64,000 nucleotides of DNA from the IMG/VR virus record IMGVR_UViG_3300046501_000132, positions 32,001 to 96,000 of that record; one strand, written 5' to 3'. This stretch comes from a virus. Shown piece by piece: positions 4,464-27,364 of this stretch (position 1 is its first letter; every line of letters starts with the position of its first letter). The position numbers and the translations under genes were made by a program. The notes below the pieces were generated by a model that saw nothing but the letters and a program-made list of their open reading frames with translations, was not told the DNA's origin and made no database searches.

Positions 4464-5030
4464 ATGAGTACAATGTCTGAAAGATTGAAAGAGACTCTAG
4501 GGATGCTAGAGAACAAGGGGATTGAGATTAAGAATGTCCCCTCATTTGAAGATGCGGAATCTGATGAAGTGGTTGGCGCTCGTGGCGGCGCCATTATTCC
4601 ATTCGTCCCCAAAGAGATCGCAACATCAATTCCTGAGACTGAAAACTCAGACATTCGTGATGACTATATTACTTCTCGTAATATCACCCACACGTTGATC
4701 GATATGGCCGGCAGCGCGCTACAGGGCGCCCTGGATGTAGCAATCGAAACGCAGCATCCGAAGGCTTACACAGTCTTCAATGAACTCGCTACGACGATGC
4801 GCGGACTATCCAAGGACTTACTTGAGATGCAGAAGATTTACAAAGAAATCTCTGCTGAGAAGAAAGCCGCTCAAGAGGCTGCAAAGAAGGTTGGTGGTGT
4901 GACTAACAACCTTAACATCACGACACACAGCGCCTCTCTGGCAGATGTGTTGAAGATGATTAAGGATGGTGTTGATCCTAACACGATTGATCTAAATTCA
5001 ATTCCAGCTGAGGTGATTGATAATGAGTAA
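4464..5030 (+). CDS. gp16: Terminase small subunit gp16
   Basis: DDYITSRN, HPKAYTVF, VTNNLNI motifs; upstream of gp17. Confidence 0.88.
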   Translation: MSTMSERLKETLGMLENKGIEIKNVPSFEDAESDEVVGARGGAIIPFVPKEIATSIPETENSDIRDDYITSRNITHTLIDMAGSALQGALDVAIETQHPKAYTVFNELATTMRGLSKDLLEMQKIYKEISAEKKAAQEAAKKVGGVTNNLNITTHSASLADVLKMIKDGVDPNTIDLNSIPAEVIDNE

Positions 5031-6840
5031 GAAAGACGTTCAATTTGCTCCATATAAAGATGGAGGCGGTCACACCTTTCCGCTCCCAGACATCTTCCTA
5101 CCTTATCGGGACACCTATAATGGCAACATTCTGATCAAGAAGGCTTTCGTGAAATCTGAACTAACTGTTCAGCACATTCTGGAAGCCGCTCGTTGCGAAG
5201 CCGATCCAATCTACTTCATCGAGAACTATTGCCGTATTATTTCTCTGGATGAGGGCATCATCCCATTCCGTCTGTTCAAGTATCAGAAGGAAATGATCAA
5301 GATGTACGCGGAAAACCGTTTTAGTCTAACGCTGACCGCGCGTCAGATGGGTAAGACGGCAGCGATGGCAGCGTTTATCTTATGGTTCGCCATCTTCCAT
5401 CCGACTAAGACAATTGCTGTGTTGGCTAATAAGGGTGAACAGGCTCAGGAAATCATGGACCGTATTCGGATGGCCTTTGAATACTTGCCTTTCTTCCTAC
5501 AACACGGTGTGAAGGTTTATAATAAGCGTCGTATTGAATTTGATAACGGATCGGTCATCTTCTCTGCCGCCACGTCTGCCTCTGGTATTCGTGGTCGCTC
5601 TGTTGACCTTTGTTACATCGATGAGGCTGCGTTTATTGAAAACGATTTGACTTTCTACGAATCCACATATCCGGTTATTACGTCTGGTAGCGCGTCGCGC
5701 GTTATTATGACCACGACGCCTCGTGGTGCTCGTGGGATGTTCTATATGCTTTGGCGGGATTCGTTAGCCAATCGCAACTTCTACACTCGATTGGAAGTCT
5801 TATGGGATGCACATCCAAAGCGGGATGAGAAGTGGAAGGAAGAAACGATTGCTAATATTGGTTACTCTCGTTTCGCACAGGAATTTGCTTGTAAGTTCCA
5901 AGGTTCGTCAGGCACCTTAATCCCAACCGAAGTTCTGGAACGGATGGAGTGGATGAATCCTCTTGAAGAAGATGAACACCTGAAGGTATATCTGAAATAT
6001 CAGCACAAGTATGTTCAAGTTGCTGATCCGGAAGATGAGAAGGGCGAACGGATGATCACCGTTCCAGTTCCGCTAACCGCTGAGGATAAACCAAGACGTT
6101 ATATTGCAATTGCTGACCCGGCCGCAGGTTTGGGTCTAGACTACTCTGTTTGTACCGTATTGGATGTTACCGAATATCCATATCGTATTGTAGCCAAGTA
6201 CAGAAACAACAATATTAGTCCGTTATTGTTCCCGCATACCATTCTAAATATATGTATGTCCTATGGTAATTGTCCAGCACTCGTTGAATCTAACAACGAC
6301 GTGGGTGGTCAGGTTACTTACATCTTGTATTACGAATTGGAATATGAGAATGTTATCTTGACGTCAAACTCTGAGCGCGCAATCGGCGGCTTGCGTGAAG
6401 GCGGTAAGGGTAATCAGGCACTACCTGGCGTGCGGACTACCAAGAAGGTTAAATCCATCGGTTGCTCTAACCTCAAGACTCTACTCGAAAATGAGTATTT
6501 GGTTATTGAGGACCAAGAGACCATCGAGGAATTGGGAACATTCATTGCTAAGGGCGCAAGCTACGAGGCGGATGAAGAGTGCCATGACGATACCGTTATG
6601 CCTTTGGTATTGTTCTCTTGGTTCATCAAATCTGAGCTATTCAATGAATACTGCGGTAGCGATATTGTTGTTGATCTATATCAGAGAAACGTCAATAAAG
6701 CGATGGAACAAATCCTGCCATTCGGCTTCATCGAAAGAGCAAACGAGGAAGTTCAAGAGTACCAAGATGTTGTGGGTGGATACTCTATGAACGTAACCGA
6801 GAATAAGGTGATGACGTTTGATGAATGGATGAACACGTAG
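5023..6840 (+). CDS. gp17: Terminase large subunit gp17 (ends in TAG)
   Basis: ARQMGKT Walker A, YIDEAAFI Walker B, HDDTVM nuclease motif. Confidence 0.97.
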   Translation: MSKKDVQFAPYKDGGGHTFPLPDIFLPYRDTYNGNILIKKAFVKSELTVQHILEAARCEADPIYFIENYCRIISLDEGIIPFRLFKYQKEMIKMYAENRFSLTLTARQMGKTAAMAAFILWFAIFHPTKTIAVLANKGEQAQEIMDRIRMAFEYLPFFLQHGVKVYNKRRIEFDNGSVIFSAATSASGIRGRSVDLCYIDEAAFIENDLTFYESTYPVITSGSASRVIMTTTPRGARGMFYMLWRDSLANRNFYTRLEVLWDAHPKRDEKWKEETIANIGYSRFAQEFACKFQGSSGTLIPTEVLERMEWMNPLEEDEHLKVYLKYQHKYVQVADPEDEKGERMITVPVPLTAEDKPRRYIAIADPAAGLGLDYSVCTVLDVTEYPYRIVAKYRNNNISPLLFPHTILNICMSYGNCPALVESNNDVGGQVTYILYYELEYENVILTSNSERAIGGLREGGKGNQALPGVRTTKKVKSIGCSNLKTLLENEYLVIEDQETIEELGTFIAKGASYEADEECHDDTVMPLVLFSWFIKSELFNEYCGSDIVVDLYQRNVNKAMEQILPFGFIERANEEVQEYQDVVGGYSMNVTENKVMTFDEWMNT

Positions 6841-6889: not shown

Positions 6890-8743
6890 ATGCTATTCTT
6901 GTCACCAGCCGTCCTTACTTCTGAGGACGATCAAACCCTATATACCCTGCAGGTGGCCAATAAAGTTGGCGCTATTGCAGGTGCTTTCCAATGGGGTCCG
7001 GTGGACACGCCGACCCTAATTACAAATGGCGAAAAGGAATTCACCACGAAGTTCGGTATTCCAGATAACGCAACATACAAGTATGTGATGCCGCTGCTTG
7101 ACTTCTTCAGCTACATGAACACTGCTTATGTAGTTCGTCAAGTTGGTACAACTGCGCGGAATGCTTTCCCCACTGGACAAACTGCTCAGCTAATCAAGAA
7201 CGACGATGCATTTGAACACGCTTCGCTAACTGGCGCTGACTTCATTGCTAAGTTCCCTGGTACGGCTGGTAACGGCCTATCGGTTGTTCTATTGAGCAAT
7301 TCCACGTTCGTTGGACACGAGCTAGCCAACCGCTTCACTTATGCTCCGCTAGCAGAAGAATATAACATCGCCGTTGTGGACACGACTGGTTATTGGACCG
7401 GAACTGCTGCTCGCAAGCAAAAGGAACGTCTAGTTGTTACTGGTACTGCCTCGGGTACGTCTTTGACTATCTTCGGCGTTCCTGTGACAGTTGCTGCTTC
7501 GGATACGGCTGCTCAAGTGGCTGCTAAGATCGGAGCAACTGCCGGTTTCCTAGCACTATTCGATACCGTGACCGTTTCTGGTAATATCGTTACCTACACA
7601 GAAAAGGTTGCTGGGTACTCTGCTGTCACCCCCGCCCCAGCAACGCAAGTTGGTTTGTCTTTCACGACCGACATCGTTGACCCAGGTAGCCTAGGCGGTG
7701 TGCTAGAAACGTATGAGTTGATGGAAGGCGTGACTACTGCTCGCTTTGCGGATGGCACTGTGAAATACTTTGCTGATGCGATCAACCAAGGTTCTAAGTA
7801 CATTCGCGTTGCTGATAAGAGTATTGCTCTATCTGCACGTACTGTGACTCTAACAGGCGGTGTGGATGACCAAACTGTTACGGTTTCTACTGGTTTCCAA
7901 CTATTGAGCAACCGTGAAGCCTACGACATTCAGTTCCTTATCGCTCCTGACGTAACCGAAGCCGAACAAAAGGCAATCATCGACGTGGCTGAAACCCGTG
8001 GTGACTGCATGCCGTTCGTGGCTCCGCGTATGGCTGACGTTGTGAACAACAAGGGTGGTGAAGTTGCTGCTGTTCGTGACTGGCGTCTGAATCGTCTAAA
8101 CAAGGATTCTAACTACGGTTTCGCAGTGGATAACTGGGGTTATATGTACGATAAGTACAACGATGTATACCGCTGGATTCCTGCAACGGGTGGCACGGCT
8201 GGTATCTTCGGTCGCACATTCGTTAACCAAGACCCGTGGATTTCTCCTGCCGGTCTGAATCGTGGTAAGTATAAGAACTACACTAAGATGGCTTGGTCTG
8301 CATCTGAAGAAGATCGCAATGCTTTGTACCCTTACGGTATCAATAGCATCGTTACCTTCCCTGCTGAGGGTATCGTTCTATTCGGTGATAAGACGCTAAC
8401 TCAACGTCCATCGGCATTCAGCCGCGTGAACGTGCGTTGGGCCTTCATCGTTGCGAAGCAATCTGTGGCTGCTATGGCTCGTTACTACTTGTTCGAAATT
8501 AACGATGAGCAAACTCGTTCGCAATTCGTGAACGCCGCTCGTCCGTTCCTTCGTAACATGATGAACCGCCGCGCCTTTGAGGACTTCCGCGTTATCTGTA
8601 ACGAGACGAACAACGATGGTGAAACACGACTACAGAACAAGATGGTGGTTCAGCTTCTATTGAAGCCGACATACTCTATCAACTGGGTGGTGCTAAACCT
8701 ATCTGCAATTCGTCCGGACGTGGCCTTCACCGAAAGCGAATAA
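6890..8743 (+). CDS. gp18: Tail sheath protein gp18
   Basis: LSPAV, FQWGPV, PWISPAGLNRG, FGDKT, YYLFEINDEQTR motifs. Confidence 0.96.
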   Translation: MLFLSPAVLTSEDDQTLYTLQVANKVGAIAGAFQWGPVDTPTLITNGEKEFTTKFGIPDNATYKYVMPLLDFFSYMNTAYVVRQVGTTARNAFPTGQTAQLIKNDDAFEHASLTGADFIAKFPGTAGNGLSVVLLSNSTFVGHELANRFTYAPLAEEYNIAVVDTTGYWTGTAARKQKERLVVTGTASGTSLTIFGVPVTVAASDTAAQVAAKIGATAGFLALFDTVTVSGNIVTYTEKVAGYSAVTPAPATQVGLSFTTDIVDPGSLGGVLETYELMEGVTTARFADGTVKYFADAINQGSKYIRVADKSIALSARTVTLTGGVDDQTVTVSTGFQLLSNREAYDIQFLIAPDVTEAEQKAIIDVAETRGDCMPFVAPRMADVVNNKGGEVAAVRDWRLNRLNKDSNYGFAVDNWGYMYDKYNDVYRWIPATGGTAGIFGRTFVNQDPWISPAGLNRGKYKNYTKMAWSASEEDRNALYPYGINSIVTFPAEGIVLFGDKTLTQRPSAFSRVNVRWAFIVAKQSVAAMARYYLFEINDEQTRSQFVNAARPFLRNMMNRRAFEDFRVICNETNNDGETRLQNKMVVQLLLKPTYSINWVVLNLSAIRPDVAFTESE

Positions 8744-8771
8744 TTGAACGAAGGGGAGAAATCCCCTTCAA

Positions 8772-15243: not shown

Positions 15244-16698
15244 CTAGGTACGGGCGCGGTTGCGAACTTCGTCAAACGTTGGGATATATTCCCGTTCGCC
15301 ATCACAGTAGTACATCTTCCATCCATCCGTATCGCGGAAGACGCTGAACCCGTTGCCCGCCACAGTTTCAATCTGACCGTTCACCAATGCAGTATGGGCC
15401 AGGCCGGACAGCGACTTCTTACTGGAGTCAGTCTTGGGTTCCTTCAGGAGATTTACCCAACCCAGTTCCTCATCGTAGCGGGCAGTTGCCTTCATCGAGA
15501 ATGAGAACTCATCGCGGCCAGGACCATGAGTCATACCACCGCCCATACCAAAGGTCAGGTTATCCATCGAGTAATCAGCAGCCAGCAGATTGTCGATGAT
15601 CTGGGGAATACTGATGTGGTTGATACCATCGCCTTGGATAACCCGGAACGAGGGATGCAGAACCTTATACCCTGCGTCGTTCTTGGTCGAACCAACCTTC
15701 TCATCGATCAGACGGATGATTTCAATCGGCTTGGTAAGCGGGTTGCCGGAATCCGGGCGAGCAACCATCACGCCGCCAGAGGCAATAATACGGTCCCTCA
15801 GCTTACCACACAGATATTCACCGACGAAACGCTCATCGTCATAGGTGTCAATCACCACAGACTGGAGAGGAATACCGATACCTCGCTTGGTACGCGCCAC
15901 AGCTTCTTCCAGACGTTCAACCGACATTACAGCAGCGCCCCAGTCATCCTTATTGGCCGCATCTGAGTGTGAGCACATCACACTATGTTCCGTAGCATCA
16001 ACCGAACTAAACACCGGCTTGAACGTCCGGTAGATAGCCTTGATATAGGCGTTGGCTTGCAGGCAGTCAGAACCGGAGAACAGGAATCCGTGGGCGATTG
16101 CCGCAATGATTGCCGAATCGTTACCATCCGCGCCGCGATCACCGAAGTTGTGCAGCTTATACTCCAGCATGCTCATATCGGCCCCAGATTCTTGCATTGC
16201 CGCTTGAATCTTCTTGTAGCAGTAGCGGCTCATCGTGGCTACTGTGGTCATCTTCCACATGATACGCTGCACGACGGTTTCCACGTAGGACACAAGCCAG
16301 AAGAAACGTTCATCCGAGTTTACGATACCCAGGATCGGAGTATTGGGTTTCACCACCGTGCCTTCTTCCACGCCGAACACCTCCAGCGGTAGACGGCCAT
16401 CATACTCATTGGTGATGATTTCCCAGTCAGCTCGGTTGAACTCATAACCATATTGGTTGACTTCAACTTCAGCTTCATCGATCATTTCCTGAGTGATACG
16501 CACGTTTGCCAGAACAGCGGCAACCAGGGAAGCGCCAGCAGACACGATGCGATCGGTATACGACGAAGCCTTGCGCGGCACCACAGTTGAATAGATGAGC
16601 TTCGTGCCCTCGGGATATTCTGCGAAGTGGTGCAATTTATAGCTATCACAAGCGAGGATAAAGTTGCCCGGAACCAGATCATTAACGGATACAGTCAT
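15244..16698 (-). CDS. nadV: Nicotinamide phosphoribosyltransferase (ends in TAG)
   Basis: DSYKLHH, LHNFGDRG, ATEHSV, VIDTYD, RPDSG, IQGDGI, FGMGGG motifs. Confidence 0.95.
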   Translation of the reverse strand: MTVSVNDLVPGNFILACDSYKLHHFAEYPEGTKLIYSTVVPRKASSYTDRIVSAGASLVAAVLANVRITQEMIDEAEVEVNQYGYEFNRADWEIITNEYDGRLPLEVFGVEEGTVVKPNTPILGIVNSDERFFWLVSYVETVVQRIMWKMTTVATMSRYCYKKIQAAMQESGADMSMLEYKLHNFGDRGADGNDSAIIAAIAHGFLFSGSDCLQANAYIKAIYRTFKPVFSSVDATEHSVMCSHSDAANKDDWGAAVMSVERLEEAVARTKRGIGIPLQSVVIDTYDDERFVGEYLCGKLRDRIIASGGVMVARPDSGNPLTKPIEIIRLIDEKVGSTKNDAGYKVLHPSFRVIQGDGINHISIPQIIDNLLAADYSMDNLTFGMGGGMTHGPGRDEFSFSMKATARYDEELGWVNLLKEPKTDSSKKSLSGLAHTALVNGQIETVAGNGFSVFRDTDGWKMYYCDGEREYIPTFDEVRNRART

Positions 16699-18023: not shown

Positions 18024-18052
18024 AAAATGCCCCTCAGATTTCTCTGAGGGGC
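18024..18052 (-). terminator. Terminator at 3' end of the tRNA cluster
   Basis: GCCCCTCAGA-GAAA-TCTGAGGGGC followed by ATTTT on minus strand. Confidence 0.75.
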
Positions 18053-18250: not shown

Positions 18251-18346
18251 TGGCCCACATCCTAGGATTCGAACCTAGATTTAACCCAATCGGAATCGAA
18301 CCGATTAGCCTCCGCGCGCTGTGAGGCTGCCGTCCAGCTGATGTGG
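18251..18346 (-). ncRNA. tRNA-like RNA with two T-loop hairpins and no canonical anticodon arm
   Basis: Acceptor CCACATC/GATGTGG-GCCA; AATCGG-TTCGATT-CCGATT and CTAGG-TTCGAAT-CCTAG. Confidence 0.75.
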
Positions 18347-18762: not shown

Positions 18763-19011
18763 TTACATCTTTGCGAGAATCTCGTATTCCCGAATAAGAA
18801 ACACGGTTTCGCCATCCACCACTGTCCGCTTGGCCTCAGCCCAATTCGGAACAATTACATCATCAATCTCGATGAGTCCGGCGCTTACTTCATCACCAAC
18901 AGCGATTACCTTACCATAAGTGGCAGTGTTAGTGCTCGTGATGATAAGAGTGGTACTTTGCGCTTCAACCTTTACTTCGGTAAAGGCAACATTATCAAAA
19001 AGTGGCTTCAT
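18763..19011 (-). CDS. GroES-like co-chaperonin
   Basis: MKPLFDNV, GKVIAVG, LIREYEILA motifs. Confidence 0.85.
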   Translation of the reverse strand: MKPLFDNVAFTEVKVEAQSTTLIITSTNTATYGKVIAVGDEVSAGLIEIDDVIVPNWAEAKRTVVDGETVFLIREYEILAKM

Positions 19012-19347: not shown

Positions 19348-19905
19348 TTACAACGGGAATTTCTTCCCAGCGCTAATCAACGCTTTCTTCTTGATCTTGA
19401 AGCTCGTACTTTCTTGTCCACCAAACATCTTACAGTTGGCGATTATCTCAGCCCAAGCAGTAAAATATAAGGATGGAGCTAGAGGATGTTTCCAAAGATT
19501 AACAATATCATCACCCTTCAGTGTATGGAACTCCATATCCTTTAAGATGAGTATTGCCGTCTCAAGATCGTCCGGCCAGATCGTAAAGTATTGAGCACAA
19601 GAATACTTAGCGTGATCAGGAAAACGTTGCTTACCATCTTCTCCCACGACTCTAGCTAGATGCTTACCGCAATCGTGGTAAATATGATACTGCTTCAAAT
19701 CCTTAATGTAATGTTTAGTCCGTTCATATATCTCTCCGATCTACGGAGGAAGATCAATGATTTGCTCACCACCCTCAAGCTGATTAATCAACTCTTGGTA
19801 CGCCTCGTGAACCGCGTTTCCGTGATCCAACATATTCATCGTTTCGAACTGGTAGCAATTACTCATCGCTTCTTTCAGTTCGTATAGAGATTTAGCTAGC
19901 TGCAT
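19348..19905 (-). CDS. HD-domain phosphohydrolase, 185 aa if the in-frame TAG at 19741-19743 is read through
   Basis: MQLAK...LDHGNAV...IDLPP-TAG-IGEIYERTKHYIKDLKQYHIYHDCGK...FPDHA; the two tracked ORFs share a frame. Confidence 0.8.
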
Positions 19906-20239
19906 TTGGACCCTTCCAGAGTTTATACTTACTGAACGTCTTACGTTGCTCAGCCGTGATCGGTTCAGTTGCGAAAGAAGTGAATCCATAATCCCAATCA
20001 GGCTCATAGAAGGCTTCACATCGAATCCCACGATCAATAGTACGTTTCATTGCTACCTCCAACTTTTCCTTATTAGGAATTTGGAGCATAATCAACGAGG
20101 AAGGTTCATTTGACTTTCTATCAAATGAATGACCGGCTTCTAGCGCGGCGTGACAAGCCTGAACGATCTGCTGTTCAATCGGCAAGTCGGTACGGATGAA
20201 AACATACACCCAAGTCTTTTCAGCGTTCTACGATTTCAT
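19892..20239 (-). CDS. PTH2-like peptidyl-tRNA hydrolase, 115 aa if the in-frame TAG at 20228-20230 is read through
   Basis: ATG AAA TCG TAG AAC GCT GAA AAG ACT TGG GTG TAT...; YVFIRTDL...VQACHAALE PTH2 motif. Confidence 0.78.
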
Positions 20240-20279
20240 TTCTATCTCACTTTGTTTAACTACATTAAAACCAAATATA

Positions 20280-20355
20280 TGGTGGCTCGTACCGGGATCG
20301 AACCGGTGACCAGCGGATTTAGAATCCACCGCTCTACCAACTGAGCTAACGAGCC
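20280..20355 (-). tRNA. Amber suppressor tRNA (anticodon CUA)
   Basis: Canonical 76-nt cloverleaf: GGCTCGT/ACGAGCC-A-CCA; GTGGA-TT-CTA-AA-TCCGC. Confidence 0.93.
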
Positions 20356-20365
20356 ATTATATATT

Positions 20366-20451
20366 TGGTACCTCGGGTGGGATTCGAACCCACACTCCCT
20401 TTCGGGAAGGGGATTTTGAATCCCCCGCGTCTACCGTTCCGCCACCAAGGC
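20366..20451 (-). tRNA. tRNA-Leu(CAA)
   Basis: GGGGA-TT-CAA-AA-TCCCC, variable arm, CCA. Confidence 0.94.
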
Positions 20452-20629: not shown

Positions 20630-20705
20630 TGGCCCCGCCCTCAGGTTACGATCCTGACCCTCAAGCTTTTCAAGCATGCGCTTCCACCAGGTTAGCTTGA
20701 GCGGG
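20630..20705 (-). tRNA. tRNA-Phe(GAA), atypical T-loop
   Basis: Loop TT-GAA-AA; T-loop ATCGTAA; G73. Confidence 0.8.
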
Positions 20706-22313: not shown

Positions 22314-22388
22314 TGGAGTGGGTAACTGGATTCTAACCAGTGTAGCAAGGTTTTGCAGACCTGCACCTAAACACTCGGACACACCCAC
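22314..22388 (-). tRNA. tRNA-Cys(GCA)
   Basis: Loop CT-GCA-AA, U73; T-loop TTAGAAT. Confidence 0.85.
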
Positions 22389-22491: not shown

Positions 22492-22579
22492 TGGCGGAAG
22501 ATGAAGGATTCGAACCTTCGTGCCGTTTCCAACGCGCTCCTTAGCAGGGAGGCCCAATAAGCCACTCTGGCAATCTTCC
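22492..22579 (-). tRNA. tRNA-Ser(GCU)
   Basis: Anticodon GCT, long variable arm, GCCA. Confidence 0.92.
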
Positions 22580-26726: not shown

Positions 26727-26900
26727 TTATAATGTCGCTTCGAAATACAGATGATCAAAGTCCATCACTTGACCACAATCATCACGCACGGAAACAGTTG
26801 TATCGTCGGTGTGGATGATGATATATTGCCGACCACGAGTCAAATGCGGAGGATGATTAACTACGGGACTGACTTTGGTGCAACCTTCGAAAATCGCCAT
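26727..26900 (-). CDS. 57-aa hypothetical protein
   Basis: TGATG overlap with macro-domain gene; MAIFEGCTKV...YFEATL. Confidence 0.55.
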   Translation of the reverse strand: MAIFEGCTKVSPVVNHPPHLTRGRQYIIIHTDDTTVSVRDDCGQVMDFDHLYFEATL

Positions 26901-27364
26901 CACTCATACTCCACTAACGTTATTTGTATGCTTGGGCTAGCACTATTAATAATTCCTGCAATAGTTGCCCAATCGCCACGAGCAAGACCTGCACCGATTT
27001 TAGGAATTCCCAAAATGAAAGGTTCAGGACTAAATGTTCTAACATCTTCATTAATCTTTACGAAAGCACTTTTAATGGAATCGTAAAGACGCTTTCGATC
27101 TTCACGCCCAGGTCTGAATTGAGTGTAGGCGTTATAGATCCAACCGAAGTCGGTTTCACAAACTGAAAATTCTCCAAGCTTTCCGGCTTCGCCATAGGGA
27201 GACTTTTCATCCTCCCGAAGCGCCTCAGGAAACTCTTGTGCAATCGACGCTGCAACTCCAGCGCCCATCGTATGGAAGCAGTTACACCCGTGGGCAATCC
27301 CATGGAACTGTCCCTGCTTGAACATCGTGATCAGGTTTCCCTTGGTCGTCTTAACTATCGGCAT
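26900..27364 (-). CDS. Macro-domain (ADP-ribose processing) protein, T4 Tk.4-like
   Basis: HGCNCFHTMGAGVA, NAYTQF, IPKIGAGLARGDW. Confidence 0.9.
   Translation of the reverse strand: MPIVKTTKGNLITMFKQGQFHGIAHGCNCFHTMGAGVAASIAQEFPEALREDEKSPYGEAGKLGEFSVCETDFGWIYNAYTQFRPGREDRKRLYDSIKSAFVKINEDVRTFSPEPFILGIPKIGAGLARGDWATIAGIINSASPSIQITLVEYE

What the first reader, a model, noticed from the sequence alone, without database searches (positions are those of the whole stretch)
20280..20355. Intact amber suppressor tRNA with a Lys-like body
Seen: 76-nt cloverleaf, loop TT-CTA-AA, A73, encoded CCA; the 5' half (GGCTCGTTAGCTCAGTTGGTAGAGC) closely resembles enterobacterial tRNA-Lys. Known: U35 of amber suppressors favours charging by LysRS or GlnRS. 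Inference: it inserts Lys (or Gln) at UAG and could also extend host UAG-terminated proteins and the phage gp17 and NadV.
Basis: partly seen in the sequence, partly recalled or inferred. Interest (0 to 1): 0.78.

Follow-up and report, generated by a model that had tools for sequence, protein, structure and literature searches.

The report
Amber suppressor tRNA gating neighbouring genes
A T4-like phage that otherwise uses the normal genetic code carries a working-looking tRNA that reads the UAG stop codon, and the two genes right behind it (two tRNA-end-cleaning enzymes) each contain a conserved in-frame UAG, so the tRNA most likely exists to unlock those two genes.

Summary
Window 20280-20355 (- strand) is a canonical 76-nt tRNA with loop UU-CUA-AA, A73 and an encoded CCA. 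It scores 69 bits against Rfam tRNA, and its only significant E. coli match is tRNA-Lys. The next two genes on the same strand each carry an in-frame TAG: a Pth2-type peptidyl-tRNA hydrolase (codon 4) and an HD phosphohydrolase of phrog_14850 (codon 55). These are the only credible in-frame TAGs in the 170-kb genome, which otherwise uses TAG as a rare true stop, for example in TerL and NadV.

The same trio, with TAGs at the same codons, recurs in five diverged relatives whose suppressor tRNAs show compensatory stem changes. Across IMG/VR, 43 of 71 unique HD-gene loci have a CTA tRNA within 10 kb, always on the same strand. Of 72 unique loci, 45 have a gating TAG in the HD gene, always followed by a purine. 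One of the two TGA-gated loci has a TCA tRNA nearby.

The inserted residue is unresolved, with Lys favoured by the tRNA body. The apparent Gln in database homologues is an artefact of code-15 translation. Earlier reports of this scan found the same module on other genomes, and I found no description of it in the literature.

The parts
20280..20355 (-). Amber suppressor tRNA with anticodon CUA (window 20322-20320), A73 and encoded CCA; its body is closest to bacterial tRNA-Lys
19892..20239 (-). Pth2-type peptidyl-tRNA hydrolase gene: ATG 20239-20237, codons M-K-S-TAG, stop TAA 19894-19892; 115 codons when read through
   Evidence: The sequence is shown. Pfam PTH2 gives E 3.8e-4, below the cut-off. 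The AF2 model has pLDDT 90.8. Foldseek matches archaeal and human Pth2 with E 7e-5 to 3e-4 and TM 0.65-0.78. The same M-K-S-TAG start occurs in L049, where the alternative GTG is GTA.
20228..20230 (-). In-frame TAG, codon 4 of the Pth2-type gene, followed by A
19348..19905 (-). HD-domain phosphohydrolase gene (phrog_14850), 185 codons when read through; ATG 19905-19903, stop 19350-19348
   Evidence: The phrog_14850 match has E 2.9e-59 in one stretch covering residues 9-183, across the TAG. There are 116 homologues, mostly about 185 aa. The AF2 model has pLDDT 96.7. The best structural match is 3wfo_A residues 250-445, a CC-adding enzyme, with Z 14.1.
19741..19743 (-). In-frame TAG, codon 55 of the HD gene, followed by A; it lies at the start of helix 54-66, after the invariant His28
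20366..20451 (-). tRNA-Leu(CAA), the 5' neighbour of the module in the array
   Evidence: the same order occurs in L049
19165..19249 (-). tRNA-Leu(TAG), the 3' neighbour of the module
18029..18052 (-). Terminator-like hairpin with a T run after the last tRNA of the array. No other - strand terminator-like site lies downstream of the suppressor tRNA, so it and the two genes probably share one transcript (inferred).
5017..6840 (+). Large terminase (gp17-like) ending in a true TAG stop; read-through would add 9 codons
15244..16698 (-). NadV (NAMPT) ending in TAG; read-through would add 13 codons, and neither the stop nor the extension is conserved in L049

Best explanation
The tRNA is a functional amber suppressor whose selected job is to read two specific UAG codons in the genes directly downstream of it. 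The first is codon 4 of a Pth2-type peptidyl-tRNA hydrolase. The second is codon 55 of an HD phosphohydrolase that resembles the HD part of class II tRNA nucleotidyltransferases. The tRNA is probably transcribed with the phage tRNA array, charged by a host synthetase (LysRS most likely, GlnRS second), and competes with host RF1. Full-length enzyme is made only on read-through, so the dose of both tRNA-3'-end enzymes is tied to the activity of the phage's own tRNA. This is a lock-and-key translational gate in a genome that otherwise keeps the standard code. What is shown here: the tRNA itself; the two TAGs; their conservation together with the tRNA across relatives; family-wide linkage; and a read-through-favouring context. 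What is inferred: expression, charging, the inserted residue, co-transcription, the enzymes' activities, and the purpose of the gate. For the purpose, I favour dose limitation or coupling of enzymes that could harm charged tRNAs.
For: 1. Real tRNA. ARAGORN and Rfam both call it. Across 8 clade members 95.8% of stem cells pair, 16 of 21 pairs have double changes, and the loop U33-CUA-A37-A38 is invariant.
2. Only two in-frame TAGs. A codon-score screen of all 170,684 bases leaves one credible internal TAG, at 19743; every other candidate is antisense to a stronger gene. A screen for start-x-x-TAG adds only the Pth2-type gene, at 20230.
3. One protein across the TAG. The HD reading frame matches phrog_14850 in a single stretch across the TAG with E 2.9e-59. 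Residues 1-54 hold the invariant His28/Gly29. The read-through model folds at pLDDT 96.7.
4. Conservation in relatives. L049 (HD protein about 80% identical over its length) has tRNA(CTA), M-K-S-TAG and LPP-TAG at the same codons, and GTA replaces the only alternative start. L134-L137 all have M-x-TAG in the Pth2-type gene. L136 and L137 also have the codon-55 TAG, as do L054-56 and L060.
5. All-or-none inheritance. L006 and L007 have a syntenic tRNA array but lack the tRNA and both genes within the 10-kb flanks.
6. Family-wide linkage. Of 71 unique HD loci, 43 have a CTA tRNA within 10 kb and 42 within 3.5 kb. All 52 such tRNAs are on the gene's strand, and 13 of the 15 loci with only 1-2 tRNAs include one. 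Of 72 unique loci, 45 have a gating TAG, at several distinct positions: codons 3-9 early in the gene, and internally at query positions 4, 31, 47, 55 and 113. The base after the gating TAG is A in 25 and G in 20, never C or T. Two loci use TGA instead, and one of them has a tRNA(TCA) nearby.
7. Isolated phages. Pectobacterium phage CBB shows the split HD gene (CBB_407/408, in-frame TAG) and an annotated CTA tRNA 3.1 kb away.
8. Standard code elsewhere. TAG ends about 11 of 236 predicted genes, including TerL and NadV.
Against: In the window a GTG at codon 11 of the Pth2-type gene could in principle start a protein 10 residues shorter. A split HD protein (a 54-aa piece plus a 130-aa piece) is not formally excluded. 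About a third of HD loci show no gating codon, and 28 of 71 have no CTA tRNA within 10 kb, so the link is strong but not obligatory. Many loci are phylogenetically related, so the counts overstate the number of independent events. The adaptive reason for the gate is conjecture.
Confidence: 0.72

Rival explanations
1. General-purpose suppressor. The tRNA acts mainly on ordinary TAG stops, extending host proteins and phage proteins such as TerL and NadV, or perturbing host translation. The two in-frame TAGs are merely tolerated passengers.
For: TerL and NadV do end in TAG. Any active suppressor will read such stops to some degree. TAG stops are rare in the genome at about 4.7%, as expected if read-through is costly.
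Against: NadV's TAG is TAA in L049 and the extension is not conserved. The possible extensions are short, at 9 and 13 codons. This view does not explain why TAGs recur in just these two gene families at many independent positions, always next to the tRNA and always followed by a purine.
Confidence: 0.1
2. Incipient or relic TAG reassignment (code 15). The phage lineage is entering or leaving genome-wide recoding, and the two TAGs are neutral leftovers that happen to sit near the tRNA.
For: Phage TAG recoding with suppressor tRNAs is well documented, and standard-code relatives can acquire suppressors first (bioRxiv 10.1101/2021.08.26.457843). TAG stops are depleted here.
Against: Only 2 of roughly 236 genes carry in-frame TAG, and they are the two nearest the tRNA. 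The same two families are gated in very distant phages, including standard-code isolates. [quoted passage not shown]
Confidence: 0.1
3. Decay or split genes. The Pth2-type and HD genes are pseudogenes, or are made as shortened or two-piece proteins from internal starts, and the tRNA is unrelated to them.
For: A GTG lies at codon 11 of the Pth2-type gene in the window, and a GTG lies 2 codons after the TAG in the L049 HD gene.
Against: Both halves of the HD gene stay conserved: 47 of 54 N-terminal residues are identical between the window and L049. There are no frameshifts and no other stops. The stop is always TAG, apart from two TGA cases, one of which has a TCA tRNA nearby. L049 lacks the alternative Pth2 start, and the window has no start for 15 codons after the HD TAG.
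Confidence: 0.06

Closest known systems
Stop-codon-recoded phages with their own suppressor tRNAs (TAG read as Gln, 'code 15'; crAss-like, Lak and others; bioRxiv 10.1101/2021.08.26.457843)
   Same: A phage-encoded tRNA(CUA) decodes in-frame TAG in phage genes inside a standard-code host. Recoding is proposed to act as a post-transcriptional regulator.
   Different: Here the genome keeps the standard code and uses TAG as a real stop for TerL and NadV. Only two genes are affected. They are tRNA-end enzymes rather than structural or lysis genes, they sit directly behind the tRNA, and the tRNA body is Lys-like rather than presumed Gln.
Orphan CUA suppressor tRNAs of standard-code jumbo phages (e.g. 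Xanthomonas phage XacN1, PMC5852040)
   Same: These are CUA tRNAs inside large phage tRNA arrays. XacN1 also has a phrog_14850 homologue.
   Different: The XacN1 authors read through the 18 annotated amber stops and found no targets. Here the targets are identified, because the TAG lies inside or near the start of the genes, not at annotated ends.
E. coli tRNA-Lys and laboratory amber or ochre suppressors derived from it (from my own knowledge: the supG/supL ochre suppressors of lysT, and the synthetic tRNA-Lys(CUA) reported to insert Lys)
   Same: The 5' half matches at 24 of 25 positions, the variable loop UGGUC is identical, and A73 and U35 are shared. Overall identity is 78.9-80.3%.
   Different: The 3:70 pair is flipped (C-G), the anticodon and T stems differ, and the tRNA is natural and phage-borne. 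It is not related to the phage's own two tRNA-Lys genes.
prfB (RF2) autoregulation by an in-frame UGA
   Same: An in-frame stop codon early in a translation-factor gene makes the gene's output depend on the competition between termination and an alternative decoding event.
   Different: prfB uses a +1 frameshift and senses its own product. Here decoding is by a dedicated suppressor tRNA, and no feedback on termination has been shown.
Earlier reports of this scan on other genomes (e1-5328332, e1-5347853, e1-5356139, e1-5392228, e1-5407461, e1-5407477, e1-5351193, e1-5375064)
   Same: They describe the same trio: CUA tRNA(s) plus a Pth2-type gene and an HD gene gated by in-frame TAG, in phages that otherwise use the standard code.
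   Different: Those cases are giant phages with TAG at codon 3-4 of both genes. This one is a 170-kb T4-like phage whose HD gene is gated at codon 55, with a single Lys-like suppressor.

Membership tests
tRNA (Rfam RF00005) | Cloverleaf scoring above the family gathering score | tested here: met
   69.2 bits against a gathering score of 29; ARAGORN also calls it
tRNA (Rfam RF00005) | Stems maintained by compensatory changes among relatives | tested here: met
   95.8% of cells paired, 16 of 21 pairs changed on both sides, and 0 of 500 shuffles reach this
Amber suppressor tRNA | Anticodon CUA in a 7-nt loop with U33 and a purine at 37 | tested here: met
   The loop is UU-CUA-AA and is invariant in 8 relatives
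Amber suppressor tRNA | Demonstrated read-through of UAG in vivo | not testable with these tools
   This needs a reporter assay or proteomics. The indirect support is the conserved in-frame TAGs in the two adjacent genes.
tRNA-Lys (acceptor identity) | A73, U35 and a Lys-type acceptor stem and body | tested here: met
   A73 and U35 are present, 24 of 25 positions of the 5' half and the variable loop equal E. coli tRNA-Lys, and the only significant E. coli hits are tRNA-Lys
tRNA-Lys (acceptor identity) | U34 and U36 of the UUU anticodon; actual charging by LysRS | tested here: not met
   Positions 34 and 36 are C and A. Charging was not testable. It therefore has a Lys-like body but is not a tRNA-Lys by anticodon.
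Code-15 (TAG=Gln) recoded phage | In-frame TAG in many genes, with TAG not used as a stop | tested here: not met
   Only 2 genes carry in-frame TAG. TAG terminates TerL, NadV and about 9 other predicted genes.
Code-15 (TAG=Gln) recoded phage | TAG aligned with Gln in TAG-free homologues | tested here: inconclusive
   The Q in database homologues is TAG translated with code 15. The two genuine sense homologues, L134 and L135, have Leu at HD position 55.
Pth2 peptidyl-tRNA hydrolase (PF01981) | Sequence match above the Pfam gathering score | tested here: not met
   21.1 bits against a cut-off of 23. Some homologues do carry PF01981.
Pth2 peptidyl-tRNA hydrolase (PF01981) | Pth2 fold | tested here: met
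   AF2 pLDDT is 90.8. Foldseek matches 2zv3, 3erj, 1q7s and 1xty with E 7e-5 to 3e-4 and TM 0.65-0.78.
HD-domain phosphohydrolase (PF01966) | The H...HD...H...D metal-binding motif set | tested here: met
   H28, H77-D78, H98, D123 and H127 are invariant in 55 sequences. Pfam HD is matched weakly by 21 of 55 members.
HD-domain phosphohydrolase (PF01966) | HD fold | tested here: met
   VIA-align gives Z 14.1 to 3wfo_A residues 250-445, then the GlyRS-beta HD domain, PhnZ, PPX/GppA and PgpH at Z 9-11
HD-domain phosphohydrolase (PF01966) | Hydrolytic activity on a tRNA 3' end | not testable with these tools
   This is inferred only from the structural neighbours and the genomic company of tRNAs

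The most novel reading that the evidence does not exclude
Phages from T4-like to Rak2-like jumbo lineages share a dedicated translational switch. An otherwise 'orphan' suppressor tRNA exists to unlock two tRNA-3'-end enzymes (Pth2-type and HD) through in-frame stop codons, and stop codon and anticodon co-vary (UAG with CUA, UGA with UCA). The gate would meter enzymes that repair or clean tRNA ends, possibly against host tRNA-targeting defences, according to the working state of the phage's own tRNA pool.
Probability: 0.5. Interest if true: 0.85.

Novelty: new variant of a known kind. Interest (0 to 1): 0.75.

Why it matters
Suppressor tRNAs are annotated in many standard-code phages without any known target. 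The XacN1 authors looked for targets and found none (PMC5852040). This locus supplies natural targets, an explanation for why the tRNA is kept, and a compact three-part module for testing how phages use stop-codon read-through as gene-specific regulation outside wholesale recoding. It also exposes an annotation trap. The two genes are routinely split, truncated or silently translated with code 15 in databases. Finally, it links a widespread family of unknown function (phrog_14850) to tRNA biology.

Tried and rejected
1. Close relatives of the tRNA. An exact-pattern scan of IMG/VR for the anticodon arm with a free anticodon found nothing. A scan for any CTA tRNA with the same D arm gave 30 loci, none closer than 59 of 76 positions. 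A scan of bacterial genomes for the same 5' half found one tRNA-Lys(CTT) in a Fibrobacterales MAG, which gives no host clue.
2. 'Gln at the TAG position'. I first read Q in the closest HD homologues and in 12 Pth2-type homologues as evidence for Gln insertion. I rejected this once the contigs showed that those Q are TAG codons translated with code 15.
3. Typing suppressor bodies by nearest phage tRNA gave low, mixed scores and was uninformative.
4. Other in-frame TAG candidates in the genome (genome positions 8815, 96777, 97035, 115815, 116178, 117715, 120532) are all antisense to stronger genes. An M-E-I-TAG-ATG arrangement before the gene at 26900-27364 looks like an ordinary start, because an ATG follows the TAG directly.
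5. The promoter scan found no more sites than shuffled sequence, so no promoter is claimed.
6. Foldseek against the PDB gave no hit with E <= 0.001 for the HD model. The fold assignment rests on VIA-align and the motif set.
8. No complex prediction was run, because no protein-protein claim is made.

Full report
**1. The observation**

ARAGORN finds 25 tRNA genes on the - strand of the window between 18073 and 26650. One of them, at 20280-20355, has anticodon CTA. Rfam's tRNA model scores it at 69.2 bits (E 7.5e-14), second best in the array. Read on the - strand, it is a textbook class I cloverleaf with a 7-bp acceptor stem, a 4-bp D stem and a 5-bp anticodon stem. It also has the loop UU-CUA-AA, a 5-nt variable loop, a 5-bp T stem, A73 and an encoded CCA.

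**2. The genome**

The window is positions 32001-96000 of a 170,684-bp IMG/VR virus record rated complete. Its large terminase is 54% identical to that of Ralstonia phage RSP15 and more distantly related to T4-like phages. Relatives show gp23, portal and NadV in synteny. It is therefore a divergent T4-like myovirus.

My crude gene calls give stop usage of TAA 139, TGA 86 and TAG 11 out of 236 genes. TerL (5017-6840) and NadV (15244-16698, - strand) end in TAG. The genome therefore uses TAG as a rare but real stop. It encodes no class Ic synthetase (Gln/Glu type), no class IIb synthetase (Lys/Asp/Asn type) and no class I release factor. The tRNA must be charged by host enzymes and must compete with host RF1.

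**3. Lys-like body**

Against all complete E. coli genomes, the top-ranked matches are all tRNA-Lys at 78.9-80.3% identity over the full length. The median is six matching places per genome. The 5' 25 nt differ at one position, and the variable loop is identical. The best phage matches are also mostly annotated tRNA-Lys. The one bacterial tRNA sharing the exact 5' half is a tRNA-Lys(CTT). The phage's own tRNA-Lys(CTT) and tRNA-Lys(TTT) are unrelated to it.

With U35 and A73, LysRS is the most likely charging enzyme. This rests on my own knowledge of E. coli identity rules, and GlnRS is second. Nothing here proves either.

**4. What the tRNA is for**

I screened the whole genome for frames in which two coding-looking segments are separated only by TAG. 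Eight candidates came up, and seven are antisense to stronger genes. The survivor is a 185-codon frame at 19905-19351 (- strand) with TAG at codon 55 (19743-19741), about 540 nt downstream of the tRNA.

- Read through, it matches phrog_14850 with E 2.9e-59 in one stretch across the TAG.
- It has 116 homologues, mostly about 185 aa.
- It folds with pLDDT 96.7.
- Its invariant H28, H77-D78, H98, D123 and H127 and its structural neighbours make it an HD phosphohydrolase.
- The closest neighbour is the C-terminal part (residues 250-445) of a class II CC-adding tRNA nucleotidyltransferase, at Z 14.1. PMC4810234 names the related entry 3WFR as a CC-adding enzyme.
- The next neighbours are the HD domain of bacterial GlyRS-beta and other HD enzymes.

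Prompted by earlier notes of this scan, I re-read the ORF between the tRNA and the HD gene. It starts ATG-AAA-TCG-TAG (20239-20228) and continues in frame into a 115-codon Pth2-type peptidyl-tRNA hydrolase. That model has pLDDT 90.8 and matches archaeal and human Pth2 with Foldseek E 7e-5 to 3e-4. A genome-wide screen for start-x-x-TAG found no other convincing case. The only two in-frame TAGs of the genome thus lie in the two genes directly behind the only suppressor tRNA. No terminator-like site lies between them.

**5. Conservation**

A 174,825-bp relative (L049, whose HD protein is about 80% identical) has the same order: tRNA-Leu(CAA), tRNA(CTA), Pth2-type gene starting M-K-S-TAG, HD gene with LPP-TAG at the same codon, then tRNA-Leu(TAG). 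In L049 the GTG that could serve as an alternative Pth2 start in the window is GTA.

Four more contigs of the clade (L134-L137) all have M-x-TAG in the Pth2-type gene. Two of them also have the codon-55 TAG, and the other two have Leu there. L054-L056 and L060, at 52-56% identity, keep the codon-55 TAG as well.

The eight suppressor tRNAs of these contigs differ widely in their stems but remain paired. 95.8% of cells pair, 16 of 21 pairs have changes on both sides, and 0 of 500 shuffles reach this. The loop U33-CUA-A37-A38 is invariant. Two relatives with a syntenic tRNA array but no CTA tRNA in the 10-kb flanks, L006 and L007, lack both genes too.

**6. Family-wide pattern**

The IMG/VR scan found 137 stretches encoding a relative and kept the best 80, which make 71 unique loci.

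- 43 of the 71 have a CTA tRNA within 10 kb, and 42 of them within 3.5 kb.
- All 52 such tRNAs are on the gene's strand.
- CTA is the commonest anticodon in these loci, at 52 of 514 tRNAs.
- 13 of the 15 loci with only one or two tRNAs include a CTA tRNA.

The gating count adds L049 to these, giving 72 unique loci.

- 45 of the 72 carry a gating TAG in the HD gene: 30 within codons 3-9 and 15 internal, at query positions 4, 31, 47, 55 and 113.
- No internal stop is TAA or TGA.
- The base after the gating TAG is A in 25 and G in 20, never a pyrimidine.
- A 3' purine is the context known to favour amber suppression. That rule is from my own knowledge.
- Two loci use TGA instead, and one of them has a tRNA(TCA) nearby.

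Isolated phages show the same arrangement. In Pectobacterium phage CBB the gene is annotated as two CDS (CBB_407 and CBB_408) separated by an in-frame TAG, and an annotated tRNA 'Pyl' CTA lies 3.1 kb away.

**7. A trap**

Database homologues show Q at both TAG positions. The contigs behind them carry TAG there, because the proteins had been translated with code 15 ('with_TAG=Q'). Those Q are therefore further cases of the conserved TAG. They are not evidence that Gln is inserted.

**8.

Read-through would add 9 codons to TerL and 13 to NadV. In L049, NadV ends in TAA and the following codons are unrelated. Extension of NadV is therefore not a conserved function.

**9. Mechanism and status**

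The best explanation is a lock-and-key gate, in which the tRNA unlocks two tRNA-3'-end enzymes.

- The anatomy, the conservation and the linkage are shown here.
- Expression, charging, the inserted residue, the enzymes' substrates and the purpose of the gate are inferred.
- I favour dose limitation, or coupling of enzymes that could otherwise attack charged tRNAs.

The rivals are general read-through, a recoding relic, and decay or split genes. All three are less consistent with the data.

**10. Novelty**

Phage suppressor tRNAs and stop-codon recoding as regulation are known (bioRxiv 10.1101/2021.08.26.457843). Targets of suppressor tRNAs in standard-code phages were reported as not found for XacN1 (PMC5852040). 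My searches found no description of gated Pth2 or HD genes. Earlier reports of this same scan described the module in giant phages. This window adds a T4-like, 170-kb carrier with an internal codon-55 gate and a Lys-like suppressor. I rate it a new variant of a known kind.

Noticed in passing
L007:1130-1202 and L135:4014-4090: Relatives carry a tRNA with anticodon TTA (ochre type). In L135 it lies directly before the CTA tRNA. The window has none. Whether any gene there is gated by TAA was not examined.
   Followed up: no
window 20260-20265 (- strand): A minimal ATG-TAG start-stop pair lies 15 nt after the 3' end of the suppressor tRNA, upstream of the Pth2-type gene. It could be chance.
   Followed up: no
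window 22317-22388 (-), 18251-18329 (-), 22492-22579 (-): The tRNA callers disagree. Rfam finds a tRNA at 22317-22388 (44 bits) that ARAGORN does not list. ARAGORN's tRNA-Ser(cga) and tRNA-Ser(gct) did not reach Rfam's gathering score. tRNA-Phe at 20630-20705 appeared only in the permissive search, at 35.5 bits.
   Followed up: partly
P0004, P0008, P0121-P0138 (loci L136, L137): Public protein collections hold these genes translated with TAG=Q, so alignments silently show Gln where the DNA has a stop. This can mislead any test of the residue aligned to the stop.
   Followed up: yes
L054:9368-9442: The CTA tRNA next to another codon-55-gated HD gene has a G3-U70 pair and G73, unlike the Lys-like tRNA here. 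Different phages may therefore insert different residues at the same gate.
   Followed up: no
L108 and L099 (HD gene start); L108:2503-2580: Two HD genes have an early TGA instead of TAG. L108 also carries a tRNA with anticodon TCA about 7.5 kb upstream. No suppressor tRNA was found within 10 kb in L099.
   Followed up: partly
KU574722.1 286338-286904 (L052:1477-2043): In Pectobacterium phage CBB the HD gene is deposited as two CDS, CBB_407 and CBB_408. They form one frame with an in-frame TAG. GAP32_398 and GAP32_399 appear to be the same case.
   Followed up: partly
window 6902-8767 (- strand) and other antisense frames: The codon-aligned antisense frame of several strong genes is open except for TAG (23 TAG and no TAA or TGA in 621 codons). 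The sense genes therefore avoid TTA and TCA codons but use CTA. These frames mimic TAG-recoded ORFs in naive screens.
   Followed up: partly
window 18763-19011 (- strand): An 82-aa GroES/Cpn10-like gene (Pfam E 3.2e-6; phrog_3188, co-chaperonin) sits inside the tRNA array.
   Followed up: no
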